Both the position numbers and the translations under genes were made by a program. Positions 1 to 11,080 of a stretch of DNA of 11,080 bases are shown here, piece by piece. The notes under the pieces were generated by a model, which had not been told where the DNA came from, did not search any database, and worked only from the letters and a program-made list of their open reading frames with translations. Within the stretch, counting starts at the first letter, position 1. Each line of letters opens with the position of its first letter. Source of the stretch: a virus (lineage: Duplodnaviria; Heunggongvirae; Uroviricota; Caudoviricetes); IMG/VR virus record IMGVR_UViG_2778261641_000016, one strand, 5' to 3'.

Positions 1-225
1 CAATATGGTGCCGCAGTAAAAGCGGCAGAAGCACAGCGACAGTCACTGATTGATACTGCAATGGCTTCCATTAGTCTGATTCAACTGAAATTACAGGCCG
101 GACGGGAGTTGACGCAGGCAGAAACAACCCGACTTAACGCTGTGCTGGATTACATTGACGCGGTGACGGCAACAGATACCAGCACCGCACCGGATGTCAT
201 CTGGCCTGAACTGCCGGAGGCGTAG
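1..225 (+). CDS. phage tail fiber assembly protein, C-terminal part (5' end outside window)
   Basis: Frame 1 is open from base 1 to TAG at 223-225. Translation ends ...TQAETTRLNAVLDYIDAVTATDTSTAPDVIWPELPEA*, which matches the conserved C-terminal tail of lambdoid/P2-type Tfa chaperones as I recall them. No start codon in the window. Confidence 0.75.
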   Translation, partial: QYGAAVKAAEAQRQSLIDTAMASISLIQLKLQAGRELTQAETTRLNAVLDYIDAVTATDTSTAPDVIWPELPEA

Positions 226-459
226 GCCATTCAATATCTGGCACACAGGACAAAACTGAGACACACAAGGCTTTGCACTGTATTGCAAGGCTTTGTTCTC
301 TCCTGTGGATGTGTGTCTACATATTTGAAGATTGTTGTGCCGTATTTGTGACATACGCATGACAACATCATGCATCAACTTTCTGTTTGTGCCATCAACT
401 ATAGCTTAGTGAATGCGGTTAATGCTTGCTAAAACAGATAGTTATGATTGGTGCTACAG

Positions 460-505
460 ATTCGTAATGCGAAGGTCGTAGGTTCGACTCCTATTATCGG
501 CACCA
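460..505 (+). pseudogene. 3' half of a tRNA-Thr gene (thrW-type, anticodon loop through CCA); attachment-site remnant
   Basis: ATTCGTAATGCGAAGGTCGTAGGTTCGACTCCTATTATCGGCACCA contains an anticodon loop TTCGTAA (CGT), T-arm GTAGG-TTCGACT-CCTAT, acceptor 3' strand TATCGGC, discriminator A and CCA. The matching 5' acceptor strand GCCGATA is absent upstream, so this is a fragment and not a functional tRNA. Identity to E. coli thrW is from memory. Confidence 0.65.
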
Positions 506-1085
506 TCAACAGAAAATCCCGTAAAAACAGCATTCTTTAGCATGTTTATCTAACGGTTTGTAACTTCTGTTCTAACGTCTGTTAGCACTGGTAAACGCCT
601 TTGCGTTGTATCGGCTCAAGTATTGTACAACGTACTGGCGGGTAGTTACCAGGCTCAAGCCCGAACAGCATTAGAAATTATGCCATCCCTTGAAGCTAAA
701 AGAGTTGCCGGACTCTCTAAACACATCACTTGAACCCTTAGCGATACGTTCCGCGCTTCGTGCGGCGCTCAATGATGCTACACGTCGAGATGACGTTGCA
801 GAAAATAAACAGGCGTAATGTTGGGAAGACTAACCGGATCGGGAAAGAATCCGGCTCTGCCACGGTTTCGATCACCGGAGTATAACGATCACCTGATAAG
901 AGAACGTGCTAAGGCTTTATCCTCCCTGCGAAGGGATTACACCCTGCGGAAGCGCTACGCGCCGCCTTTTCTTATGTGCCCAACACGGCACGTAATGGTC
1001 ATCCATTATCTGCACCATTGTAACTTTCGTTGTACTGCCTCTCTGATGTACGTTGAGCGCTGGCAGATTCAGCGGAGGGGATATC

Positions 1086-1244
1086 ATGTCAAAAGCTAAC
1101 CAAAAAGCAGCCACGAAGCGCAACAACCGTAAGATTCACGCCCGTAAATTCCTGGCAACACCAGAGGGGAAAGCCTGGCTTGCTAAGAAGCAGGAAGAGC
1201 GAGAGGAAATCAAGTTGGCGCGAGCTGCAAACTTGATGTTTTGA
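1086..1244 (+). CDS. small, strongly basic hypothetical protein (52 aa)
   Basis: ATG at 1086 lies 6 nt after SD GGAGGG (1074-1079), in frame with track ORF 1053..1244. Product MSKANQKAATKRNNRKIHARKF... is Lys/Arg-rich. Stop TGA 1242-1244. Confidence 0.45.
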   Translation: MSKANQKAATKRNNRKIHARKFLATPEGKAWLAKKQEEREEIKLARAANLMF

Positions 1245-1247
1245 GAT

Positions 1248-1263
1248 GGGGCTAATCAGCCCC
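1248..1263. terminator. GC hairpin between convergent genes (possible terminator)
   Basis: GGGGCT-AATC-AGCCCC perfect 6-bp stem immediately after the stop of the 1086..1244 gene. It overlaps the stop codon of the convergent minus-strand gene and has no adjacent U-tract, so function is uncertain. Confidence 0.3.
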
Positions 1264-2029
1264 TATTGCCCCTATGCTTTTTTTCGAATCTTGTCACAAC
1301 TCTATCCAACCATTTGGGTTCTTCTCTAAGATCTGAGTAGTAACAATTTTCTGGAACCGCGTTCCAGAAAGCAGTTATTGCGTTAGCAAAATCTACAAAT
1401 TGATCTTCTGAGACATGTAAATCGTCATGGTTAGGGACAATCTGCGTGCCTCTAACATCGGTGGGGTTTGGGTAATACTCAGGATGATCAACTGATAGTG
1501 TTTGATGTGCAGGGCCGTCTCCATGCTTGTATACGTTTACCACCAAGTTACAGGCTTTTATCCTTTCTCCGTATTCGGTTCCATTGATTGTGAGGCCAAT
1601 CCATTCGAGCAAATCAATTAGCTGATGGAAAGTTAAATTCCAGATCATGGGGGTAATCAATTCTCTTTCACACCAATTACTTAGCTCTTTGATAGTATGT
1701 TCTCTTAGTTTTTTATCAAACTGATGATACATACCTGCTGTCAACGCCAACAATACGGTATTTTGCATCTCCAGAAGCGACCGTACATAATAAATTCCCT
1801 CATGATAGGCTTGCTCGTAGGCCGCCATTGGGTCATCGTTATCTTGATCAAAATACTCAGCAGTAGTCTCCAAAAACTGTTGTTCTCTCTTCTCTGCTTC
1901 TTGTTCTAAATCACCAAACTGAGAGAGAAGCCGCCGCCTTGCCTCAGAAACGTAAAATTCATGGGGTTCAAGAAAGTATGGAAGATCGGCTCTGGCTAAC
2001 CAGAAGGTGACAAAATTTTCAGTAGACAT
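1256..2029 (-). CDS. hypothetical protein (257 aa), function unknown
   Basis: Long minus-strand ORF. Preferred start is the ATG at 2029 (MSTENFVTFW...), preceded by SD GAGGAA with 4-6 nt spacing; the track start at 2056 has no SD. No motif I can assign. Confidence 0.6.
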   Translation of the reverse strand: MSTENFVTFWLARADLPYFLEPHEFYVSEARRRLLSQFGDLEQEAEKREQQFLETTAEYFDQDNDDPMAAYEQAYHEGIYYVRSLLEMQNTVLLALTAGMYHQFDKKLREHTIKELSNWCERELITPMIWNLTFHQLIDLLEWIGLTINGTEYGERIKACNLVVNVYKHGDGPAHQTLSVDHPEYYPNPTDVRGTQIVPNHDDLHVSEDQFVDFANAITAFWNAVPENCYYSDLREEPKWLDRVVTRFEKKHRGNRG

Positions 2030-2192
2030 ACATTTCCTCAATGAAGCGATAGACATTTTGAGGTTATGTTATCTTCGGTGAGGGTTAAAATCCTCAACTG
2101 ATTCAATGGAATTGTCATTTGGTTTGAAATGCGGTAAAAGAATAAAATTCGTAATGTACGCTTTGCAGAAACAATCTGAAAATGAGGTGGTT

Positions 2193-2420
2193 ATGAGTGA
2201 ACGTTACGAATTTTTACCCAATTGCTTCCTGAAAGTCTCTATCTCATCGGGTTACTTTACTGCCATCCTTGATGGTTCGCTTCCTCCTGATACCCCTGGT
2301 TCTGTTCATGCTGATAATGCCACGCAAGTCATAATCGTACTCGATTCCTACTTCCAATTGACTGACTTACAGCATCAAGGAATTGCTAATTATCTTTGCT
2401 CTCAAGGGATGGAACTTTGA
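2193..2420 (+). CDS. hypothetical protein (75 aa)
   Basis: ATG at 2193 preceded by SD GAGGTGG (2184-2190), in frame with track ORF 2106..2420. Divergent from the 257-aa gene. Confidence 0.4.
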   Translation: MSERYEFLPNCFLKVSISSGYFTAILDGSLPPDTPGSVHADNATQVIIVLDSYFQLTDLQHQGIANYLCSQGMEL

Positions 2421-2875
2421 TAGATTGGTTGCTTAATGTTGATAATCTGACCATGCTTGCCGCATGGGCTGGGTTTGCACTATCCATTTTCCAGCTATTA
2501 AAATCCAGAACAGATCTACGCCTTTTCTTAGGTTGCGATCAGTATGAAGACAGAATTTATGTTTCCAACAAAAGCGCCCATGATGTGACGATAAGTTCGG
2601 CGGGCATAGTAACCGCCAGCGGACGCCTTAGCGATTGTTCTAACGAACATTGTGATGAATACATGATCAGCCCCATGTTGCCACGCCGATTAAAAGCCCG
2701 TGATGAAATGATCTTAGAAGTACCATTCATCAATAAGGCTCACCATAATAAGGTGCATCATCGCGGAGGGGTGTATGTTACTACATCTGATGGGAAGCTG
2801 TTCAGTGATGTTAGTTGGCTGCGTCGTCGCTGGTGGTGGATATTGTCTCTGATCCTACGTGATTCCAAGCAGTGA
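2417..2875 (+). CDS. hypothetical protein with N-terminal hydrophobic (probable transmembrane) segment
   Basis: ORF in track (2396..2875) overlaps the stop of the upstream gene. Possible starts are TTG 2417 (after AGGGA at 2405-2409) or ATG 2453; the start is uncertain. Segment LAAWAGFALSIFQLL is hydrophobic. Confidence 0.4.
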   Translation: MIDWLLNVDNLTMLAAWAGFALSIFQLLKSRTDLRLFLGCDQYEDRIYVSNKSAHDVTISSAGIVTASGRLSDCSNEHCDEYMISPMLPRRLKARDEMILEVPFINKAHHNKVHHRGGVYVTTSDGKLFSDVSWLRRRWWWILSLILRDSKQ

Positions 2876-2933
2876 TTACTTATACACCGCACCAGACCAC
2901 GCTGGTTATCTGCTTGTCTTCCTTCTTCAATTG

Positions 2934-3131
2934 TTACTCCTCTTCAAAGGTCATTGTGTAGCGGCATTGCTGCGACGGCCTGAGCGTCACTGTCTCCGTA
3001 AAGTTGGCGTTGGAATAAACGCAAATCTTCGCGTTGTCTGTCTCCTGTTCGTCACTGAGAATCAGGGTTATCTGTCCGGCATTCGCCAGGACTGGCATTA
3101 CTGTCAGCGTCAGCACAAGCAAGCGTTTCAT
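2934..3131 (-). CDS. small secreted protein with Sec-type signal peptide (65 aa)
   Basis: ATG at 3131 preceded by perfect SD AAGGAG with 6-nt spacing. N-terminus MKRLLVLTLTVMPVLANA has an n-h-c signal-peptide layout. The SD overlaps the stop of the upstream recombinase gene, suggesting co-transcription. Confidence 0.55.
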   Translation of the reverse strand: MKRLLVLTLTVMPVLANAGQITLILSDEQETDNAKICVYSNANFTETVTLRPSQQCRYTMTFEEE

Positions 3132-3141
3132 GCGTATCTCC

Positions 3142-3702
3142 TTATAAGTCCATCTCATTGATCACACGGCTAACGGCTTGCTTGTCTAAATCCAGATAGC
3201 GCCTGGTGTCAGTGATGTTGCTGTGATTAAGCACGGTCATAGCTAAAGCGATGTTGTTTGCTGAACGCTTGTAGATGGCATTCCCGCCAGCTTTGCGGAA
3301 GCTGTGAGCTGATACAGTGCCATGAATACCGATAGCTTTAGCGGCCTCTGCGATCTGCTTGCTCACTTCTTCGCGTCGTACAGGCGCTTGCTTGTTCATT
3401 GATCGGTTACGCTGGCTTCTGAACACATGCACATCATGCGGATACTCAGCACGGCGACGAGCAATCATCTGCACCACTGGAGCAGGGAGAGTGAGGGCTT
3501 TACGCTTCCCTGTCTTCTGTTCTTCTATGTCAATCTCACCGTTGATCACTTCGTCGAAGCGTAACGCTACGGCATCCCCCACACGCAGTACAGCGGCTTG
3601 CATCATTAACGTAACGTCAGCTATCAGGCTCTTGTTATGAGCGTTTAGCCACTCCCTGATCGCTTTGGCTTGCTGTTCGTCTAACACTACTGCTCTGTTC
3701 AA
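3142..3702 (-). CDS. small tyrosine recombinase (catalytic domain only; FimB/FimE-size integrase/invertase, or truncated integrase)
   Basis: Product carries the catalytic signature in order: Arg in VLRVGDAVALRFDEV, HxxR in HSFRK, and HSNITDTRRY near the C-terminus. Probable start TTG at 3702 after SD GGGAGGG; the track start at 3774 is also TTG but has no SD. There is no N-terminal arm/core-binding domain. Confidence 0.65.
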   Translation of the reverse strand: MNRAVVLDEQQAKAIREWLNAHNKSLIADVTLMMQAAVLRVGDAVALRFDEVINGEIDIEEQKTGKRKALTLPAPVVQMIARRRAEYPHDVHVFRSQRNRSMNKQAPVRREEVSKQIAEAAKAIGIHGTVSAHSFRKAGGNAIYKRSANNIALAMTVLNHSNITDTRRYLDLDKQAVSRVINEMDL

Positions 3703-3799
3703 TTTACCCTCCCATAAAGACACACATCTAAACTCAACGAAACAAACAATATGATCAATTTCAGTAAGTTGCAATATAAATGATCAAAAATCGAACTGT

Positions 3800-4009
3800 C
3801 TTGTGTGTGGTAAATGGCGCGATTGCGTCCAGTGCTTAACGACCTCCAGGGCCGCCTCCAGATCGAAAATTTCTTCTCCTCTAAATATCTTGAACAAAAT
3901 CATGATGTTGGCATTTATAAACATGTGTTTGAACATTGCCAAATCCTCAACTCTGCACGAAGAACAGCGGCAACAGCGGAACATCACACTACCAATGCTT
4001 GTGTGTGGT
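3800..4009. repeat. pair of 12-bp direct repeats CTTGTGTGTGGT (3800-3811 and 3998-4009)
   Basis: Exact 12-mer present twice, 198 bp apart, directly upstream of the recombinase gene. Confidence 0.4.
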
Positions 4010-4080
4010 TATTGTCTATCTCATTGATTTAAATCTGATAAATGTAAGGTTGTTAGGCGAGGGCGGGGCTAACCTGCCTG

Positions 4081-4109
4081 TATGCACAAATTATGCGGAG
4101 TTTATGCAC
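4081..4109 (+). repeat. three TATGC(A/G) direct repeats phased at 11 bp (iteron-like)
   Basis: TATGCAC at 4081, TATGCGG at 4092, TATGCAC at 4103, with exact helical-turn spacing, directly after a GC box GGCGAGGGCGGGG (4056-4068). Confidence 0.4.
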
Positions 4110-4460
4110 TTGAAACTGAGTGTGTAATGAAATGATTAGAATGCTAATCAATTGGTGGATTTTGGCATGAAAAAGAAACATCGTTTCATTTTAGAAAACT
4201 CGTTCAGCACATTGCACCTGTCATGAAACTCCTCATTGTGGACAATGATCGCTGTGAGCCGCATGGCGCAAGGCTTTACGCAAAGTGAGTGATGGTTACT
4301 ATCTTGCTGACTATGGCAACTTTACCCATGTAACAACGGCAATCTTTACCTGTCATTTAAGATAGGCTTAGCTATGATTATCGTGTTGTTTTGATAGGAA
4401 TAACCTCTCGTTACTCTTAGTGTTGTTGCATGGATGAATCAGAGTTAGTTGGGGGCGTTA

Positions 4461-4541
4461 TACATCAAAATGATGTATAGATGCATGGGATACGCATCAA
4501 ATTGATGTATGGATCGGCAAACTACACATCAAATTGATGTT
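4461..4541. promoter_or_regulatory. array of three inverted-repeat sites CATCA-N3-TGATG phased at 32 bp (operator-like)
   Basis: tACATCAAAATGATGTa (centre 4469), cGCATCAAATTGATGTa (centre 4501), cACATCAAATTGATGTt (centre 4533). Half-site copies recur at the downstream promoters. Confidence 0.5.
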
Positions 4542-5091
4542 CTATACAAAGAGATTCTAAAAGCGATCTCTAAAAGAGAGCTTTTAGAAGATCTTGTTAA
4601 AGATTCGCTTTGCTGGCGCGTATCGCCTGGCAAGTGACCTGATTCGCCTTTGGGGGCTACTCGGTCAGCCGCTCACGACGCAGCGTAGCGCATCTGTCTG
4701 TGATTGTGCCAGGGCTTCGCCCTCGTGAAACGAGGCACAGAAGCTATGCGCCGTGTGCGCAATGTCTTTCAGCATAACTTCTGCCTGTCTTCCATGCTCC
4801 GCATTCATCCATGCAAAGTTAGCCCACGGCTAAGGATTCACTGGTCGCTGATGGCTCCAGTTCATCCAGCCTCAATCCAATACCATCACCTACTATCCTG
4901 ATAACTAACGTTATCCCTCAGTAGTTGTGCTATTGGTTTCGGGAGTAAGTGCCAGAGGGCGGCGGTAACGCAAACGGAACGCCCCAGACGCGCTGAGAGC
5001 GAATTTGAGAGGATAGGGAGGGGATTGCAACTCTCAGGCTTTCAAACCTGTTAGAAAGCGATAGACCGCGTTTTATGATGACATGAATGAA

Positions 5092-5120
5092 TTGATCACA
5101 ACGTGGAAATGCGCTATAAT
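5092..5120 (+). promoter_or_regulatory. sigma70-like promoter (TTGATC - 17 bp - TATAAT)
   Basis: -35 TTGATC at 5092-5097, 17-nt spacer, perfect -10 TATAAT at 5115-5120; points into the downstream operon. Confidence 0.5.
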
Positions 5121-5142
5121 TTGAAAGGGATTTAAATAAGTG

Positions 5143-5171
5143 TTGACATTTAAATCATTTCATGTTAAAGT
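5143..5171 (+). promoter_or_regulatory. second tandem sigma70-like promoter (TTGACA - 17 bp - TAAAGT with TG extension)
   Basis: Perfect -35 TTGACA at 5143-5148, 17-nt spacer, -10 TAAAGT at 5166-5171 preceded by TGt. The half-site AAATGATGTA (5172-5181) sits at the predicted transcription start. Confidence 0.45.
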
Positions 5172-5266
5172 AAATGATGTAGGGTAATGAAAGCATTCAT
5201 CCCGTCCTCATCTCAGGCATCCAGCCTAACGCAAACAATCCAACTTACACCGCACTATCAGGCAAC

Positions 5267-5515
5267 GTGATTAACGTTCTCCCTGGATGGTGTTTCTGTG
5301 TTTCTAACGCAAGGAGAACCAAAATTAAGTATTTTAATCCAGAACTTGTCTTCGAGGCTTTAAAGGCCGGAAGCCAGACGCGAAATGCAATAAACAGCCA
5401 GCGAGCAGCCGCACAACGGCAAGGATATTTCGAACACGCTGAAAGATTGCGTAAAGGAATCGAACTTTACGATCAATGGAAAGCTGAACAGGCTGAAACC
5501 ACCACCAACGAATAA
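5267..5515 (+). CDS. hypothetical protein; start codon uncertain
   Basis: Open frame in track from GTG 5267 to TAA 5513-5515. A strong SD AAGGAGAA (5311-5318) lies inside it but no in-frame ATG/GTG/TTG follows within 15 nt; only ATT at 5325. Confidence 0.35.
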   Translation: MINVLPGWCFCVSNARRTKIKYFNPELVFEALKAGSQTRNAINSQRAAAQRQGYFEHAERLRKGIELYDQWKAEQAETTTNE

Positions 5516-5533
5516 ACCAGAAGGAGAAACCAA

Positions 5534-5710
5534 ATGAGCGAAATCCAGAAGAAGAAACCAGCCGGAACATTCGTAAAACTGCCGGATGAAGTGTTTAGTA
5601 CTTTGTTCAAAGAGGCGCGAGCGAGAGGCGTAACAGTGCAGGAGATGTTAATTGACGCTGCAACCACACTTTCCACATCAATTAAGAACGGAGAACGTTC
5701 TACCAAATAA
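5534..5710 (+). CDS. small DNA-binding protein, ribbon-helix-helix-like (58 aa)
   Basis: ATG 5534 is 7 nt after perfect SD AAGGAG (5521-5526). Product MSEIQKKKPAGTFVKLPDEVFSTLFKEARARGVTVQEMLIDAA... has the beta-strand/helix/helix pattern of Arc/CopG-type proteins. Not in the ORF track because it is under 60 aa. Confidence 0.55.
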   Translation: MSEIQKKKPAGTFVKLPDEVFSTLFKEARARGVTVQEMLIDAATTLSTSIKNGERSTK

Positions 5711-5724
5711 GGATACACCCTAAC

Positions 5725-6465
5725 ATGACTGACATTATAAACAGTAAGGCTTTTAGTTTCACCAACACCGAAGACGCATTTAACGAATGCACCAGGATCA
5801 CCAATCTTAAAACAGGCGTAACAGAGTCCCTGTCTCCTGCTGATAAGCAGTTTTACGTCAGAATGCGCCATCGTTATTATCGCTTTGCGATAGAGTTGGG
5901 CGGTACTTATTACGATGACATTGATCAACTTGGTGCAAGTATTGGTGTCAGCTCGGCTACGGCAACACGTATTGTTGCAAAGTTGAAGAAAATCGGACTG
6001 ATCGCCAGTAATAAGCCAAAGCGCTCTAACCAATGGACTATAACGCCACTCACGCCGCAAAACTTCACCTTTGAACGTGATCGTAATGCGATGGAACGTG
6101 ATTCCGCGCCGGAATGGGTAGATTGTCTGAAACATCCCGTGTTTGGCAAAGCTAAAGAAGACGTAGCGCCAGAGGAAGAAAAACAGCAGTCAGTGCCAGA
6201 AGAGGCCAAAGCAGATCCGAAGCCGGAGAAGCCAAAGAAAATGCCTACGAAGAAACCCGCCTCCATTCCAGCTAAAGATATTAAGATAGAGCCAGTTAAT
6301 TTAAACTTTCTTGAGGGTTATCGGGATGAATGGGAGAATCCTGAAAAGAATCTACCAGTTTCACAACATCCGAAAATCAGATGGCTACTTATTAACGGAT
6401 ACCTGGACACAGAGAAGAATCCAAAACTTAAACCAATCTACGAGGAAATAGAACATTTATGCTGA
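5725..6465 (+). CDS. winged-helix DNA-binding protein with long Pro/Lys/Glu-rich linker (possible phage O-type replication initiator or regulator)
   Basis: 246-aa ORF. The N-terminal part has an HTH-like segment (DIDQLGASIGVSSATATRIVAKLKKIGLIAS), followed by a low-complexity linker (EEEKQQSVPEEAKADPKPEKPKKMPTKKPASIP). The domain layout resembles replisome-organiser proteins; assignment is from pattern only. Confidence 0.6.
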   Translation: MTDIINSKAFSFTNTEDAFNECTRITNLKTGVTESLSPADKQFYVRMRHRYYRFAIELGGTYYDDIDQLGASIGVSSATATRIVAKLKKIGLIASNKPKRSNQWTITPLTPQNFTFERDRNAMERDSAPEWVDCLKHPVFGKAKEDVAPEEEKQQSVPEEAKADPKPEKPKKMPTKKPASIPAKDIKIEPVNLNFLEGYRDEWENPEKNLPVSQHPKIRWLLINGYLDTEKNPKLKPIYEEIEHLC

Positions 6466-6920
6466 AAACGGTTATACCCAAACAATACAACGAACGTGAT
6501 CTTAACATCATCCATCTTGCCAGTTTATTAAATCCAGAAGTTGAAAGAGGTGTTGCATTCGAACAAGCGCAAGAACTTGTAGATGTTTACGCTGAGCGAG
6601 GTGAATCAAGTTACGCTAATGCTCTTGTTACGCTATTCAATGCAGCGATGAAGCCACCGAAAGAGATAGAATGTAAAATGACATCCCCACATCTTCACGA
6701 TAAGAATCTGTCTCCTTCGGAACGTCTGGTATTAATGCACCTCGAATCACTGCCATCATTAACAAATGTGAAACAGGAGTCAATAGCGATAGTGTTGGGG
6801 ATAAGTGTGGCAACTGTATCCAGTGCGATTCGCAAGCTTCGCCGCAATGATTATCTAACTACTACGTTAATCAAACCTGGTCGCGGTAAAGGATGCGACA
6901 TTACACTTACGACTAAATAA
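6459..6920 (+). CDS. hypothetical protein with C-terminal winged-helix DNA-binding motif (153 aa)
   Basis: Start overlaps the upstream stop (ATGCTGA), implying translational coupling. C-terminal region SPSERLVLMHLESL...ESIAIVLGISVATVSSAIRKLRRNDYL is HTH-like. Confidence 0.55.
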   Translation: MLKTVIPKQYNERDLNIIHLASLLNPEVERGVAFEQAQELVDVYAERGESSYANALVTLFNAAMKPPKEIECKMTSPHLHDKNLSPSERLVLMHLESLPSLTNVKQESIAIVLGISVATVSSAIRKLRRNDYLTTTLIKPGRGKGCDITLTTK

Positions 6921-7024
6921 CAACAATCGGGAAACTTTTATGATTACTGCTTTATGGTGGTTCACCATATTCTATGGCGTTTACGTTATAACCAGACAAG
7001 GAGTTTCCCCTCTACGAGGAATGA

Positions 7025-7408
7025 ATGGGACGAAAAGAACGAAGTAACCTTGTTAGAATCGAAAAAGCCACACGCATCAGCAAACGTAAATACACCTCTT
7101 CTCTACAAGACCTCGCACGAGAGTCTATTCCTGGTGAGATGGTGACAACTATTAAAGAATATCCCGCAGTAGTACCAAATGGATTAGAGTTTGAACTATT
7201 GCAGGATGTTCTATCGTCAACGGATAACGTTTATTACAAACCACGACGCAGACGCGAATATATTATAGATAGTAGCCATCTCAAGAAATGGCAAATAGCA
7301 GGATTTGAACATTACGCCGATTATATTGGGTATTGTCAAACCTGGGGGCTATCCCAGCACACACAAGAGTTTGATATTCTCTTTGACGACAAGGAAAACA
7401 ATGAATAA
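7025..7408 (+). CDS. hypothetical protein (127 aa), basic N-terminus
   Basis: ATG 7025 is 5 nt after GAGG (7016-7019). Its stop overlaps the next start (ATGAATAA). Confidence 0.5.
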   Translation: MGRKERSNLVRIEKATRISKRKYTSSLQDLARESIPGEMVTTIKEYPAVVPNGLEFELLQDVLSSTDNVYYKPRRRREYIIDSSHLKKWQIAGFEHYADYIGYCQTWGLSQHTQEFDILFDDKENNE

Positions 7409-7739
7409 TAAAACTATGGACACAGTGAACACCCTAATTAACTCTTTCCACGACAACTGGCATTTACCAACCTTACAGCTTGTTAATGCAGCGTGGCGTG
7501 AGAGAACGCCCTCCGCGCTTCTGGAAGCGGTGCAATACACTGAACAGGCAATCACTGCCCTTGAACATCTGCAAACGTCTGTAGCTCGTTTGGTGCAGCG
7601 TGACGGCAGTTCGATCACACCAGAAGAAGCGTGGCGTGTAGCTAATGACCTTGAGGAGCTTGCTTGCTCTCTGCAATACATCACCGTTGAACTCGGAGAG
7701 CTTTCCATCCAGATCGCGGAAGAATGCGCCATAACATAA
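7401..7739 (+). CDS. hypothetical protein (112 aa)
   Basis: ATG 7401 is 5 nt after AAGGA (7391-7395), in frame with track ORF 7305..7739. The longer track start has no SD. Stop TAA 7737-7739. Confidence 0.55.
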   Translation: MNNKTMDTVNTLINSFHDNWHLPTLQLVNAAWRERTPSALLEAVQYTEQAITALEHLQTSVARLVQRDGSSITPEEAWRVANDLEELACSLQYITVELGELSIQIAEECAIT

Positions 7740-7754
7740 AAGTTACTAAATGTC

Positions 7755-7783
7755 TTGACATTATGTGCTATATGTGTCATAAT
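7755..7783 (+). promoter_or_regulatory. near-consensus sigma70 promoter (TTGACA - 17 bp - TGtCATAAT)
   Basis: Perfect -35 TTGACA at 7755-7760, 17-nt spacer, extended -10 TGtCATAAT (7775-7783). It starts 16 bp after the stop of the upstream operon. Confidence 0.6.
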
Positions 7784-7789
7784 GAGTTA

Positions 7790-8334
7790 TAGGGTAAGTA
7801 TTCGAATCACTTCACCCTCGTATGTCAATACGCACTCCTTGAGAATGCCGTTCCCATAGCGGCATTCTCTCCCTCTGAATGCTATTTCTGAAAGTGTTGG
7901 TTCTTTGTCTTGTTTGTTCCGAAGGAATGCGCGGGATGTAATATCTCGTTGTGTTGGTATTGCATCGCAATCACCGCGCATCTCCGACTTTTTCAGAAAG
8001 GGCATTCGCTCTTTGCTCATTCATTCCGTTAGGATGAATGTAGTCAGACTGAATAAACGCCGTCAGCGGTAGTTACGTTCAGGCTGGCAATCTCTTATTA
8101 CTATTCCAGTGGTGATATTGAGATTCCATTCCCACTTCTCGCCATGACAGAAGGGCTTCTGTTTTGAAGTGGGAGCAATGACGGGCGATCCTACTTCTGT
8201 TATTCGTAACAGTTGCGCCCTTCATTTTTTCAAGAAGCCATTCTTTAACATCATAATCCTCCGAAACGAAAATGATTTTAACAGAATGCTTTCTAACAAG
8301 GGCATATTCTCCAGGGGCTTAATCGCCCCTTTTT
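7790..8334 (+). ncRNA. candidate ~545-nt non-coding leader transcript (promoter to intrinsic terminator); speculative
   Basis: No plus-strand ORF of 60 aa or more between the promoter and the terminator. Contains a perfect 10-bp stem hairpin (7841-7850 / 7860-7869). Only short ORFs without credible SD. Confidence 0.3.
8313..8334 (+). terminator. rho-independent terminator
   Basis: GGGGC-TTAATC-GCCCC stem-loop (8314-8329) followed directly by TTTTT (8330-8334). Confidence 0.6.
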
Positions 8335-8405
8335 AACAATCTGCATGTAACACTTCCGTTATCAATGGAAGGATAAACGCAGTTATAACGCGAAGGAACA
8401 ACACA

Positions 8406-8621
8406 ATGTTCTTAATAAACAATCGCGACCGAATCCTAAAATACAAATCCGAAGTGATTCAAGTTAATCCTGAGTTAATAGCTAAAGTGGCTGAAATGGC
8501 AGGATGTACCGTTGAAGAAATAGAAAAAGCTGTAGACCAGTATTTCCCTTCTGAGGACACACCTCAACTTAGTATGCAGGAACGGATCGCAATCAAATCC
8601 AAGGAAATCAAACAACAATGA
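8406..8621 (+). CDS. small hypothetical protein (71 aa), first gene of the head operon
   Basis: ATG 8406 is 7 nt after SD GAAGGAA. Its stop overlaps the start of the next gene (ATGA), implying translational coupling. Confidence 0.55.
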   Translation: MFLINNRDRILKYKSEVIQVNPELIAKVAEMAGCTVEEIEKAVDQYFPSEDTPQLSMQERIAIKSKEIKQQ

Positions 8622-8977
8622 TTGTAGACCTAACCGAACTTTTCCCAATTCGTAAGAGTTTCACTGACGTATTGAGCTACGCCACTGATTCTTTTGCAGT
8701 CGTAGAAGGCCGTGTTTTCGACCTGCCAGCAGATATTGAATGCGGCGATGTTATCGGCGCTGATGGCGCTCTATACACCTCCGGCGATGATGCCTTTGTG
8801 GTGGTAAGTGATTTCGTGAGTGCTGGCGACGGTAAAACCGTGAATGTCCTACGTGCGCCTAATGTTGGTAGCTTCGTAGCACTGAAAGCCGACAACCTGC
8901 ACGCAGCTAATCACGCCGCAGCTATCACCACGCTCGAATCCAAAGGGTTCGTATGCCGTCCATTCTTCACCTCTTAA
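8618..8977 (+). CDS. probable phage head decoration protein (119 aa)
   Basis: Gly/Ala/Asp/Val-rich small protein encoded immediately upstream of the major capsid gene, the same position as gpD before gpE in lambda-like heads. Assignment rests on position and composition, not on recognised sequence identity. Confidence 0.5.
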   Translation: MIVDLTELFPIRKSFTDVLSYATDSFAVVEGRVFDLPADIECGDVIGADGALYTSGDDAFVVVSDFVSAGDGKTVNVLRAPNVGSFVALKADNLHAANHAAAITTLESKGFVCRPFFTS

Positions 8978-8993
8978 TCAAGGAAGATAAATA

Positions 8994-10025
8994 ATGAGTA
9001 AAATCGCAATTGGGCGTGAGATGGTCGATTTAGCGCCAATCTTCCAGGCTCTGCCGGAACGTAACTATCTTATGAATGCCCTCGACCTATTCGACGGGGT
9101 AGGTGTTCAGAATCCGAAAGTGGTGGTGACACAGCTTCTGGATGATAACTACAGCCTGTTTAACACCCCGCAGAGCCGTTATTCATCAAACCACGACACT
9201 ACCGCGCGTCAGAATGGCAAAGAATACCTTATCGAGATTCCTTGGTTTGCAAGGGAAGATGAGTTTAAACCTGTAGACGTACAAGGCCGCAGAGTGCAGG
9301 GAACGGACTACGAGCAAACCGTTACCGACCTGTACACCGAATACACTGGCAAACATAAGATTGCTTATCTGCGTACCCGTGAGTCTTACCTGGCCCGTGC
9401 TCTGTTCAAAGGTGAAGTTTATACGCCTGCAACTGATGACCTACTGATCTCTTATGCTGAACTGTTCGGTGTGGTGCCAATGACAGCCAGCGTGAGCACA
9501 GCGACAGCGGCACAGGATTTTGATGCGATCTTAGACAAAGTTCAGGCTGCCGCAGGTGGATTGGCTGGACAGATTGAACGAGTGATCGTATTCGCTAAAC
9601 CTGCTGCATTTAGCCAGATTCGCTTCTCTGACAGTATGTCTAAGGCGTTCCAGTATGTAGCGCCATATGACGACCGTAACCTATTCTACCAGCGTCACGA
9701 GCTTCTCCCTGGTGTTAGTACGTTTAGCCTACCTGGTGCGCCTATCGACATTGTTAAAGTGACAGATCCGCTGATCCTTGCACAGATGCCAGATGATGCT
9801 GACATGGTGGCGGTTCCGGTGTTCAGTAAAGGCACAAATGCTTATCAGAACATCTACGGCGCTGCCTCTGGTAACTTTGCGCTGATCGATGCTGCACCTG
9901 CTGAATACTACTCTTGGGGCTACCTGAGCGAGCGCGGCGATGCTTACCACGTTATGCACGAAAACAGCGCATTACCAGTGAACCATGCGTTAGGTATGCA
10001 GGTGAAGATCACCATCACTGCTTAA
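8994..10025 (+). CDS. phage major capsid protein, lambda gpE-like (343 aa)
   Basis: ATG 8994 after AAGGAAG. Length matches the 341-aa lambda E protein, and local blocks (ALFKGEVY, VIVFAKP...F) resemble E-family blocks as I recall them. It follows the decoration-like gene. Confidence 0.75.
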   Translation: MSKIAIGREMVDLAPIFQALPERNYLMNALDLFDGVGVQNPKVVVTQLLDDNYSLFNTPQSRYSSNHDTTARQNGKEYLIEIPWFAREDEFKPVDVQGRRVQGTDYEQTVTDLYTEYTGKHKIAYLRTRESYLARALFKGEVYTPATDDLLISYAELFGVVPMTASVSTATAAQDFDAILDKVQAAAGGLAGQIERVIVFAKPAAFSQIRFSDSMSKAFQYVAPYDDRNLFYQRHELLPGVSTFSLPGAPIDIVKVTDPLILAQMPDDADMVAVPVFSKGTNAYQNIYGAASGNFALIDAAPAEYYSWGYLSERGDAYHVMHENSALPVNHALGMQVKITITA

Positions 10026-10088
10026 TGAGCAAGCGGGAGCCTGACCCGCTGGAAATAATCAGGCTATTGAATAGGGCGTGTGAACGTT

Positions 10089-10121
10089 GGGAACATCTCC
10101 CCAGTGTTCCCGCCCTTTTTT
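10089..10121 (+). terminator. probable intrinsic terminator after the capsid gene
   Basis: GGGAACA-(9 nt loop)-TGTTCCC stem (10089-10111), then GCCC and TTTTTT (10116-10121). Confidence 0.45.
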
Positions 10122-10144
10122 ATTTCCAGAATGAGGAAAGATAA

Positions 10145-10342
10145 ATGCAAGTGATTGTAAAAAGCGCGGGGCTTCACCTCGCCGTAAATGCTGAAACAGC
10201 AGAAGAGTTATTAAATCTGGCGGGAGTGTGTCGTGTGCTTGAAATAGATCACGGTCATCTACGTCAGTTATTACATCGTGGGCGTAGTGTATCAGATGCA
10301 CTTAATTATCTGGTGAGTAAAAAAGGCGGTGGCGATGCTTGA
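10145..10342 (+). CDS. hypothetical protein (65 aa)
   Basis: ATG 10145 after strong SD GAGGAAAG. Its stop overlaps the start region of the next ORF. Confidence 0.5.
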   Translation: MQVIVKSAGLHLAVNAETAEELLNLAGVCRVLEIDHGHLRQLLHRGRSVSDALNYLVSKKGGGDA

Positions 10343-10799
10343 GATTAATACAAGTAAGATCGTCAACACCGTAACTTTCACCGTTGACAAAGGGAGTATT
10401 GCAGAGGCTAAGGCCGCAGCGGATAACCTTCAAAAGCACTTCCAGAAAATAGCCGATCCCAAGATTCGCTTCCAGGATCTGAAGCAGCGCAGACAGAAAG
10501 CCCGTCAACAAGCCGATGATGCACGTTTTAATGATAAGCCTCGTGATACGAAGGAAATGAAAGCCCAACGTGCGGCGGAGAAGCAGAAAGCCAGGGATGA
10601 AAAGGCCAATCTGAAAGCGAAGCAGCAGCTACAGAAGCGCCAAGAGACAGCCGAGCTTAAACTTCGCCATGCAGGGCTACAAGTGTCAGGAATTAAAGGT
10701 AAATACGGGCTTGATCCTAAATCTCAGTATGAAGCGTTACGTTATATTCATCAGCAAAGCGAAGAGTTTGCGAAAAGGGTATTAACTTTCGCAGCCTGA
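10329..10799 (+). CDS. hypothetical protein, highly charged Lys/Arg/Glu/Gln-rich central region (156 aa)
   Basis: Track ORF overlapping the upstream stop (start ATG 10329 or 10335). Its last ~8 codons are read out of frame from invertase-homologous DNA. Confidence 0.5.
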   Translation: MAMLEINTSKIVNTVTFTVDKGSIAEAKAAADNLQKHFQKIADPKIRFQDLKQRRQKARQQADDARFNDKPRDTKEMKAQRAAEKQKARDEKANLKAKQQLQKRQETAELKLRHAGLQVSGIKGKYGLDPKSQYEALRYIHQQSEEFAKRVLTFAA

Positions 10800-11080
10800 C
10801 CGACAGCATAGATACGTCTTCACCAATGGGACGCTTTTTCTTCCATGTCATGGGCGCACTTGCAGAAATGGAAAGGGAGCTGATAGTCGAACGTACCAGG
10901 GCGGGATTGGCTGCGGCTCGTGAAGAAGGGCGAATAGGTGGGCGTCGATCAAAGCTAACTGATGAACAGTGGGCGCAGGCAGGCAGGTTGATTGCAGCAG
11001 GTGAATCACGACAGCGTGTGGCATTAATTTACGATGTTGGGATATCGACGCTATATAAAAAATTTCCGGCAACCAGGTAA
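10772..11080 (+). pseudogene. serine DNA invertase (Pin/Gin/Hin family) C-terminal fragment, lacking the catalytic N-terminus; runs off the window end
   Basis: Translation EKGINFRSLTDSIDTSSPMGRFFFHVMGALAEMERELIVERTRAGLAAAREEGRIGGRRSKLTDEQWAQAGRLIAAGESRQRVALIYDVGISTLYKKFPATR closely matches the C-terminal half of e14 Pin as I remember it. The frame is closed by TGA at 10730-10732 and no serine-nucleophile N-terminal domain exists in any frame upstream. Confidence 0.65.

What the first reader, a model, noticed from the sequence alone, without database searches (positions are those of the whole stretch)
10730..11080. Invertase C-terminal half fused out of frame to an unrelated upstream gene
Pin/Gin-like homology begins abruptly near 10772. 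Upstream in that frame there is a stop at 10730-10732 and no catalytic domain. The 156-aa upstream ORF instead terminates inside invertase-derived DNA in another frame. This is a clean recombination or deletion breakpoint; the surviving HTH half could still bind invertase sites.
Basis: partly seen in the sequence, partly recalled or inferred. Interest (0 to 1): 0.35.

Follow-up and report, generated by a model that had tools for sequence, protein, structure and literature searches.

The report
Deletion-truncated prophage invertase pseudogene
The window ends in the dead back half of a phage DNA-invertase gene, left when a 10.7-kb deletion fused two neighbouring decaying mobile elements in an E. 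coli chromosome; this is ordinary prophage decay, but the same few bases of this gene are a breakpoint in several other deletions.

Summary
Window 10772-11080 is codons 82-183 plus the stop of a 183-aa Gin/Pin-type serine invertase. It is 100% identical to the intact gene in E. coli AR_0128. The frame has a stop at 10730-10732, and no catalytic half exists in the window or in the 10 kb downstream. The upstream ORF (10335-10799) is the first 147 codons of a 614-aa tape-measure-like gene of a tRNA-Thr island, running out of frame into invertase DNA. Relative to nine complete E. coli genomes, the window carries a 10,680-bp deletion with its crossover in a GAA trinucleotide. The deletion removed both elements' integrases, the island's right attachment site, the gix site and the invertase N-terminal half. 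The same junction is in two public assemblies, so it is not an assembler artefact. It is one of many short-microhomology deletions eroding this prophage. The remnant is a pseudogene: no start context, no promoter-like site, no gix site. One feature is unexplained. At least five different left-hand sequences, in two allele lineages, are joined within 5 nt of the same point (GGGAA|AAGGG). Two other endpoints in the same prophage are also reused. This points to break hotspots or junction reuse.

The parts
10772..11080 (+). 3' remnant of a Gin/Pin-type serine invertase gene: codons 82-183 plus the TAA stop. It covers the last part of the catalytic-domain profile, helix E and the HTH_7 DNA-binding domain.
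   Evidence: 100% identical to L001 31156-31464. tblastn places residues 82-183 here, E 1.5e-65. Pfam Resolvase 89-144/145 and HTH_7 1-44/45. The intact gene is colinear with Mu Gin 3UJ3, E 9e-92.
10772..10774 (.). Deletion crossover: the GAA trinucleotide shared by both parent sequences (codon Glu82 of the invertase).
   Evidence: Three-way comparison of the window, L001 20446-20506 and L001 31129-31189. BLAST blocks overlap by 3 nt.
10335..10799 (+). Truncated fusion ORF of 154 aa (156 aa from GTG 10329). It holds residues 1-147 of a 614-aa tape-measure-like island protein plus 7 out-of-frame residues (RVLTFAA) read from invertase DNA, with the stop at 10797-10799.
   Evidence: The parent CDS is L001 20036-21880, annotated 'TolA'. 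The parent matches phrog_16051, tail length tape measure protein, E 2.5e-98 over residues 167-614.
10730..10732 (+). Stop codon in the invertase frame, 40 nt upstream of the junction. It lies in island-derived DNA.
10826..11080 (+). Longest ORF left in the invertase frame: 84 aa from Met100. The ATG lies inside a hairpin at 10815-10833 and has no Shine-Dalgarno-like sequence.
   Evidence: Gene callers in public assemblies call this ORF.
507..10771 (+). Left 10.3 kb of a ~13.7-kb island integrated at tRNA-Thr. It carries a replication-initiator-like gene, HTH genes, a lambda-E-like major capsid gene at 8994-10025 and the tape-measure-like gene. The deletion removed its right 3.4 kb, including the integrase and the right attachment site.
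   Evidence: 99.99% identical to L001 10208-20475. Annotation. Pfam and PHROG results. The island's right-end core TGCGAAGGTCGTAG is at L001 23842-23855.
460..506 (+). 47-nt copy of the 3' part of tRNA-Thr (attachment-site core). It is not a complete tRNA.
   Evidence: Equals L001 10161-10207 and is repeated at L001 38187-38232 and L003 16693-16738. ARAGORN finds no tRNA in the window.
1..459 (+). Right end of a different prophage, comprising the 3' end of a tail-fibre-assembly gene and a spacer, lying in tandem to the left of the island.
   Evidence: Positions 5-508 are contiguous at 96-97% identity in many E. coli genomes, under 'tfaE/tail fiber assembly protein'. The ORF at 61-225 has a Tfa-like C-terminus.

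Best explanation
This is a deletion junction inside a tandem array of decaying mobile elements at the tRNA-Thr (thrW) locus of an E. coli chromosome. In the undeleted arrangement, a ~13.7-kb capsid/tape-measure island is followed by the already eroded remnant of a ~35-kb contractile-tail prophage. The last genes of that prophage are an invertible tail-fibre segment and a Gin-type invertase. One illegitimate recombination event joined codon 147 of the island's tape-measure-like gene to codon 82 of the invertase through a 3-nt microhomology (GAA). It removed 10,680 bp. The lost DNA holds the rest of the tape-measure-like gene, two small ORFs, the island integrase and right attachment site, the prophage integrase, its immunity region and leftover head and tail genes, the last gix site and the invertase N-terminal half. 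That half carries the Ser9 nucleophile and, by homology to Gin, the enhancer. The result is two pseudogenes: a 154-aa truncated fusion ORF and a promoterless invertase remnant. Both elements are also left without an integrase and so cannot excise. The deletion itself and the gene content lost are shown by the data. The joining mechanism is inferred: RecA-independent short-homology joining, by template switching or end joining. The position of the right-hand break is not random. The same few bases are used by other deletions, for a reason not established here.
For: Colinearity with the undeleted parent is base-exact on both sides of the junction. Eight complete genomes show identical spacing between the two parent sites, and EC361 shows a shorter variant. 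The content of the lost interval comes from the annotation. The exact fusion protein and junction occur in NCBI GCA_002513175.1 contig NLVW01000049.1 and in the Logan assembly of SRR3957065. No N-terminal half exists anywhere in the window or downstream. The gix sites lie only in the deleted part. The same prophage in AR_0128 already carries five internal deletions relative to the intact copy in APEC20/16. These are 357-10,156 bp long, each with 1-5 nt of microhomology, which is the same signature as the window's deletion. Further decay states exist in EC361, L007, L009, SZQ1 and L008; the L008 state is a nonsense codon in the invertase. Loss of integrase or attachment sites followed by deletional decay is the described fate of 'grounded' prophages (PMC6379469).
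Against: Random microhomology joining does not explain the reuse of the right end. The same AA/GAA (L001 31156-58) is joined to the island integrase gene (L007), to the ymfQ stop codon (L021) and to a truncated integrase next to a large serine recombinase (L014-L023). A fifth context joins 3 nt away (L032). The two assemblies that carry the window's junction may derive from one isolate. They therefore exclude an assembler artefact but do not prove independent strains.
Confidence: 0.92

Rival explanations
1. The right-hand break is made by a site-specific event, and the deletion is its repair product rather than a chance slippage. The event could be a strand-specific nick, a protein-protected end or a replication stall at GGGAA|AAGGG in the invertase gene. 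This refines the mechanism of the best explanation and does not compete with the conclusion that this is a deletion.
For: Five distinct left contexts end within L001 31154-31158, in two allele lineages whose intact parents both exist (AR_0128 and SZQ1). A 493-nt contig of E. coli G213 starts exactly at 31157. Only one other truncation point was seen, at 31096. With roughly 300 nt of ascertainable target, three independent hits within 5 nt have a probability of about 3e-4 (own estimate). The site is the centre of a 10-nt purine mirror repeat. Deletions with one end fixed at a nick site are known from rolling-circle replication origins (own knowledge: Michel and Ehrlich 1986).
Against: No nuclease, relaxase or recognisable site was identified. 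There is no significant DNA hairpin (z -0.1). The site is unlike a gix site. The K-12 pinH pseudogene retains residues 42-94 and so is not cut there. None of 39 matching complete E. coli genomes is truncated there. Some of the shared ends could be inherited, if later deletions restarted at an existing junction.
Confidence: 0.35
2. The island's tyrosine integrase promoted the deletion by recombining secondary (pseudo-core) sites.
For: The left breakpoint TTGCGAA|GG is identical over 9 nt to the island's right attachment-site core AGTTGCGAAGGTCGTAG, with the crossover in its GAA. The three GAA-type sites share the pattern G-N-GAA.
Against: Neither partner is the true attachment site. The invertase site and the integrase-gene site resemble the core only weakly. 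Arm-dependent integrases are not expected to recombine two bare pseudo-sites. The same right end is also used in lineages that carry different integrases. The match was noticed after the fact.
Confidence: 0.06
3. The invertase itself made the deletion by recombining pseudo-gix sites that share an AA core.
For: All junctions of this family cross over in AA, which is the central dinucleotide of this invertase's own gix sites. AR_0128 retains an intact invertase with only one gix site.
Against: Read by eye from the sequences, the half-sites flanking the AA match the gix half-site consensus at only 1 of 12 positions on either side. No junction partner is a true gix site. The predicted cleavage position of the only half-site-like stretch lies 6-8 nt from the observed crossover.
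Confidence: 0.03
4. The 84-aa helix-E plus HTH fragment is retained as a functional DNA-binding protein, for example as a competitor of resident Pin-type invertases.
For: The HTH_7 domain is complete. The isolated Hin DNA-binding domain binds hix sites (own knowledge). Several independent inactivations keep this part intact.
Against: There is no Shine-Dalgarno-like sequence and no promoter-like site, and the ATG lies in a hairpin. There is no local target site. All the events are too recent for intactness to indicate selection, since the flanks show 0-1 SNP.
Confidence: 0.04
5. The junction is an assembly chimera or a sequencing error.
For: The junction 50-mer is absent from the GTDB representative genomes and from IMG/VR, and no complete E. 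coli genome carries it.
Against: The same junction appears in two assemblies made by different pipelines. Only 3 nt are shared at the joint, far too few for a k-mer chimera. Both flanks are otherwise 99.99-100% identical to the parent.
Confidence: 0.02

Closest known systems
Gin of phage Mu (PDB 3UJ3, 4M6F) and the Pin/Cin/Hin DNA invertases
   Same: The intact parent gene (AR_0128) aligns without gaps over residues 1-183 with Gin, E 9e-92 and 78% identity. Upstream of it lies an invertible tail-fibre segment flanked by gix-type sites, TTCTCCCAAACC-AA-....
   Different: The window copy lacks residues 1-81, which include the Ser9 nucleophile and the rest of the catalytic core. It also lacks its promoter, the 5' coding region that holds the enhancer in Gin and Hin (own knowledge), and both gix sites. 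It cannot be an invertase.
pinH (b2648), the invertase pseudogene fragment of E. coli K-12
   Same: It is a Pin-family invertase gene reduced to a fragment within degraded horizontally acquired DNA, and it is annotated as a pseudogene.
   Different: pinH keeps residues ~42-94 and so has different breakpoints. It lies at another locus, and it retains the stretch where the window copy is cut.
'Grounded' or cryptic prophages (e14, CPS-53, Qin, Rac) decaying by deletion
   Same: The pattern is loss of integrase or attachment sites followed by stepwise deletions (PMC6379469). The thrW prophage here shares ymfL, ymfQ, ymfR, yfdR and yfdT homologues with e14 and CPS-53.
   Different: Here one deletion spans two different elements lying in tandem and disables both at once.
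Deletions anchored at a nick site of rolling-circle origins (M13, pC194; own knowledge)
   Same: One end is fixed to the base, the other end varies, and the joints show a few nucleotides of microhomology.
   Different: No origin, relaxase or Rep protein is associated with the invertase site. The resemblance is one of pattern only.

Membership tests
Functional Gin/Pin/Hin-type serine DNA invertase | N-terminal catalytic domain with the serine nucleophile (Ser9/10) and the Arg/Asp active-site residues | tested here: not met
   Only residues 82-183 are present. The first 81 residues have no match in the window or in 10 kb downstream. Only Pfam Resolvase profile positions 89-144 are present.
Functional Gin/Pin/Hin-type serine DNA invertase | C-terminal helix-turn-helix DNA-binding domain (HTH_7) preceded by helix E | tested here: met
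   HTH_7 positions 1-44 of 45, E 5e-13. Colinear with Gin residues 82-183 at 78% identity.
Functional Gin/Pin/Hin-type serine DNA invertase | Two inverted gix/hix-type 26-bp sites flanking an invertible segment next to the gene | tested here: not met
   The sites are present in the intact relative (L002 5783-5806 and 7677-7700). None occurs in the window with up to 3 mismatches, and there is no AAACCNNGGTTT in the downstream loci.
Functional Gin/Pin/Hin-type serine DNA invertase | Fis-dependent enhancer inside the 5' part of the invertase gene | not testable with these tools
   The whole 5' 243 nt of the gene is deleted. The enhancer position is known only by analogy with gin and hin (own knowledge).
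Deletion-derived pseudogene in a decaying prophage array | Both flanks colinear with a longer, intact arrangement in close relatives, with a single joint | tested here: met
   Window 460-10774 and 10772-11080 map to L001 10161-20475 and 31156-31464. Nine complete genomes carry the undeleted form.
Deletion-derived pseudogene in a decaying prophage array | Reading frames disrupted, with no intact start context for the remnant | tested here: met
   The frames differ, and there is a stop at 10730-10732. The first canonical start is ATG 10826, which lacks a Shine-Dalgarno-like sequence. No + strand promoter-like site was found.
Deletion-derived pseudogene in a decaying prophage array | Junction seen in independent data, so not an assembly artefact | tested here: inconclusive
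   The junction is found in an NCBI assembly and in a Logan assembly made by different pipelines. Whether these are different isolates could not be determined.

The most novel reading that the evidence does not exclude
The invertase gene, and two further points in the same tail-fibre/invertase region, contain base-specific break or joining hotspots that repeatedly anchor large one-sided deletions. This would mean that decay of this prophage family is driven by a defined, perhaps enzyme-made or replication-stall lesion at GGGAA|AAGGG, and not by random slippage. The window's junction would then be one product of that process.
Probability: 0.3. Interest if true: 0.45.

Novelty: already known. 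Interest (0 to 1): 0.17.

Why it matters
As flagged, the finding matters little. It is a textbook example of how tandem prophages and islands are immobilised and eroded, and it should be annotated as two pseudogenes and not as a recombinase. It does warn annotators that the 84-aa 'Resolvase/HTH_7' ORF and the 154-aa 'TolA-like' ORF called in public assemblies are debris. The reuse of the same breakpoints by different deletions is the only part that could teach something new. If real, it offers a natural system for studying what fixes one end of spontaneous deletions in enterobacterial chromosomes.

Tried and rejected
- **Junction in reference collections.** The exact 50-mer junction was searched in GTDB representative genomes and in IMG/VR, with no hits. 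The 40-mer right flank in metagenome contigs gave only intact genes.
- **Hairpin at the breakpoint.** None was found (z -0.1).
- **Gapped local similarity as the driver.** The tape-measure site ranks in the top 1.8% of GAA sites for similarity to the invertase site. The integrase-gene site is unremarkable at 76%, and the three left partners of the other reused end rank at 72-98%.
- **Chi-limited RecBCD resection.** A perfect Chi sequence lies 66 nt to the left (L001 31083-90, read). Its orientation protects the deleted side, not the retained side.
- **CRISPR type I-E self-targeting.** An AAG PAM adjoins the site, but the PAM and protospacer survive the deletion, so survivors would be cut again (reasoned from the sequence only).
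- **IS-mediated adjacent deletion.** No IS sits at any of these junctions, although an IS1 end starts contig L007 and IS100 lies 65 bp from one reused end in EC361.
- **Family-wide hotspot.** K-12 pinH has other breakpoints.
- **Common motif among the three reused sites.** Only GTAATCC is shared, by two of them.
- **Other searches.** Rfam found nothing in the window. The truncated-integrase context (L014) has no full-length match in the plasmid or phage collections. A search for further truncated copies in complete E. coli genomes found none. A search of the tfa'/gp53 module was swamped by full-length hits.

Full report
**What is in the sequence.**
Translation of window 10730-11080 begins with a stop codon and then reads ...EKGINFRSLTDSIDTSSPMGRFFFHVMGALAEMEREL...YKKFPATR*. 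Pfam finds the last third of the Resolvase catalytic-domain profile (positions 89-144 of 145, E 2e-17) and a complete HTH_7 domain (E 5e-13). The ORF list shows an upstream ORF at 10329-10799 in a different frame, ending 25 nt inside this homology.

**Where it comes from.**
A megablast of 10300-11080 against 5,426 complete E. coli genomes split cleanly into two parts.
- Query bases 1-475 matched a CDS annotated 'cell envelope integrity protein TolA'.
- Query bases 473-781 matched a 'recombinase family protein'.
- No genome carried the two parts side by side.

In strain AR_0128 (locus L001) both parts lie in one region downstream of proA and tRNA-Thr.
- Window 460-10774 equals L001 10161-20475, with one mismatch in 10,315 nt.
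- Window 10772-11080 equals L001 31156-31464, with no mismatch.

The window is thus the AR_0128 arrangement minus L001 20476-31155, which is 10,680 bp. The three-way comparison shows that the crossover lies in a GAA shared by both parents. Eight complete genomes have exactly the AR_0128 spacing, and EC361 has a shorter variant.

**What was joined.**
The left partner is a 614-aa protein.
- It matches PHROG 16051, 'tail length tape measure protein' (E 2.5e-98 over residues 167-614), and no Pfam family.
- The 'TolA' name reflects its Lys/Glu/Ala-rich N-terminus.
- The window keeps residues 1-147 and adds RVLTFAA from invertase DNA read out of frame.

The right partner is a 183-aa invertase.
- It aligns without gaps over its whole length with phage Mu Gin (PDB 3UJ3, E 9e-92, 78% identity).
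- The window keeps residues 82-183.
- The first 81 residues, which carry the serine nucleophile, have no trace in any frame of the window or of the 10 kb that follow it in the source contig.

**What was lost.**
According to the AR_0128 annotation, the deleted interval holds the following.
- The rest of the tape-measure-like gene and two small ORFs.
- The island's 407-aa integrase.
- The prophage integrase, an XRE repressor and a Cro-like gene.
- Fragments of ymfL, terminase, sheath, tube and tail-assembly genes.
- A gp53-like tail-fibre tip.
- The invertase 5' half.

The interval also holds the island's right attachment-site core, TGCGAAGGTCGTAG at L001 23842-55.

The gix sites of this invertase are typical, with half-sites around an AA core. 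They lie at L002 5783-5806 and 7677-7700. The proximal one, at about L001 30833-30856, is inside the deletion. No gix-type site remains in the window or downstream.

**Is the junction real?**
The junction 50-mer is absent from the GTDB representative genomes and from IMG/VR. However, the exact 154-aa fusion protein is encoded on NCBI contig NLVW01000049.1 (GCA_002513175.1, 24 kb) and on a Logan contig of SRR3957065, with identical flanks. From the coordinates, the window appears to be bases 3-11082 of the NCBI contig (inference). Two assembly pipelines and a 3-nt joint exclude a k-mer chimera. Whether two isolates are involved is unknown.

Downstream, the contig continues as in AR_0128, with a umuC fragment, hypothetical genes, an SRAP peptidase and a second 47-nt tRNA-Thr repeat.

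**Context: a decaying array.**
APEC20/16 carries the near-intact ~35-kb prophage directly at tRNA-Thr. It runs from the integrase through immunity, lysis, terminase, HK97-type head, contractile tail and baseplate genes to the tail fibre, the invertible segment and the invertase.

Against that reference, the AR_0128 remnant has five internal deletions of 1,989, 10,156, 5,907, 357 and 9,578 bp. Each has 1-5 nt of microhomology. Other decay states are seen elsewhere.
- EC361, L009 and SZQ1 show further, different deletions.
- L008 has a nonsense codon at invertase codon 76.
- L007 has a deletion from inside the island integrase gene to the invertase.

The window's deletion has the same size range and microhomology signature. 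It fits the described route of 'grounding' followed by deletional decay of prophages (PMC6379469). Truncated Pin-family genes are already known, for example K-12 pinH, which retains residues 42-94.

**Function of the remnant.**
- The first canonical start in frame is ATG 10826 (Met100).
- Reading, the 12 nt before it contain no Shine-Dalgarno-like sequence.
- The ATG lies in a hairpin at 10815-10833.
- The scan found no promoter-like site on the + strand in 9900-11080.

The isolated DNA-binding domain of Hin is known to bind hix sites (own knowledge), so binding is conceivable. There is nothing to express the fragment and no local site for it to bind. I treat it as a pseudogene.

**The unexplained part.**
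The deletion in L007 (Logan ERR5311846) has a different left end, L001 23103, but crosses over in the same GAA. Looking up the other members of the 84-aa ORF's 90% cluster and aligning their contigs gave more cases. These lie in a second allele lineage (97% identical), whose intact parent with umuDC downstream is seen in SZQ1.
- The ymfQ stop codon is joined at L001-equivalent 31157 (L021).
- A truncated integrase next to a large serine recombinase is joined at 31157 (L014-L023, L031, L033).
- Another prophage left arm is joined at 31154 (L032).
- The ymfQ stop codon is also joined 61 nt further left, at 31096 (L025-L030).
- A 493-nt contig of E. coli G213 starts at 31157 (L024).

Five distinct left contexts therefore end within 5 nt, at the centre of GGGAA|AAGGG.

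A second right end shows the same behaviour. The point ref 44393 (L001 30410, GTA) is shared by three different left ends: 34817, 13483 and 12843. The ymfQ stop codon, in turn, serves as a shared left end for two right ends.

Either these points are break hotspots, or later deletions tend to restart exactly at an older junction.

I tested and could not support the following explanations; the details are in the field listing what was tried and rejected.
- A hairpin at the breakpoint.
- Extended local similarity between the partner sites.
- gix-like pseudo-sites.
- The integrase core, although the tape-measure site shares 9 nt with it.
- Chi orientation.
- IS elements.
- A hotspot common to the whole invertase family.

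None of the 39 matching complete E. coli genomes is truncated there.

**Verdict.**
The only unusual feature is the recurrent use of the same breakpoints. This is documented here but not explained.

Noticed in passing
window 507-10774 (the island continues to L001 23855): A ~13.7-kb tRNA-Thr island encodes a lambda-E-like major capsid protein (Pfam Phage_cap_E, E 8e-15), a 119-aa ORF just upstream of it, a tape-measure-like 614-aa protein, a replication-initiator-like protein and HTH proteins, and two integrase-type genes. It has no portal, terminase or tail genes. The capsid protein has almost no relative among 50,697 phage records; the best is 27% identity to a Curvibacter phage. It may be an undescribed satellite-like or defective element.
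   Followed up: partly
window 4446-4541: Three tandem 32-nt repeats each end in CATCAAA(A/T)TGATGT(A/T). They lie inside a ~1.5-kb ORF-poor stretch (3775-5266) upstream of the replication-initiator-like gene. They look like iterons or an operator array. Rfam finds nothing in the window.
   Followed up: partly
window 1-506: The window starts in the 3' end of a tail-fibre-assembly gene of another prophage. This is followed by 47 nt of the tRNA-Thr 3' part without the 5' half. At least three elements therefore sit in tandem at this tRNA locus in the source strain.
   Followed up: partly
L001 30410 (= APEC20/16 reverse-complement coordinate 44393); L011 17569; L009 724: A second reused deletion end: the same GTA(A) in the inverted tail-fibre-assembly gene is joined to three different left ends (reference 34817, 13483, 12843). 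Two of these left sites, and the right site, carry GTA(A)TCC. A 7-bp-stem hairpin (CTCTTTC/GAAAGAG) starts 6 nt to the right.
   Followed up: partly
L021 201-202 and L025 ~73-76 (= L002 5499, the ymfQ stop codon): The ymfQ stop codon (GGAGTAA|TCCATG) is a shared left end for two deletions that end at invertase positions 31096 and 31157.
   Followed up: partly
L001 20467-20475 versus L001 23840-23848: The left breakpoint of the window's deletion (TTGCGAA|GG) is identical over 9 nt to the island's right attachment-site core. This could be chance or a secondary integrase site.
   Followed up: partly
L007 1-30: The Logan contig with the alternative deletion begins with 30 nt that I recognise from memory (no tool check) as an IS1 terminal repeat, abutting island position L001 15027. 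IS1 has apparently inserted in the island in that strain.
   Followed up: no
L008 ~1343-1345 (L001 ~31139): The same invertase is inactivated in another sample by a point mutation that creates a stop at about codon 76 (TTG to TAG). This is a third route to the same 84-aa leftover ORF.
   Followed up: partly
L001 31083-31090: A perfect Chi octamer (GCTGGTGG) lies in the invertase gene, 66 nt left of the reused breakpoint, on the side that is always lost.
   Followed up: partly
L001 31658-31818 versus L014 3452-4847 and L034 3660-5350: In the AR_0128 and window lineage the umuDC operon that follows the invertase in SZQ1 and in the metagenomic relatives is reduced to a umuC 3' fragment (DUF4113 pseudogene). 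This is another deletion just beyond the window's end.
   Followed up: partly
literature (PMC11047700), relating to the region downstream of the window: In monophasic Salmonella 4,[5],12:i:- clones, a 70-kb deletion ending in hixL next to hin is replaced by a ~5.3-kb insert with prophage genes, umuC and an SOS-response-associated peptidase. That gene set resembles the cargo downstream of this invertase. It suggests such prophage right ends take part in invertase-site rearrangements.
   Followed up: no
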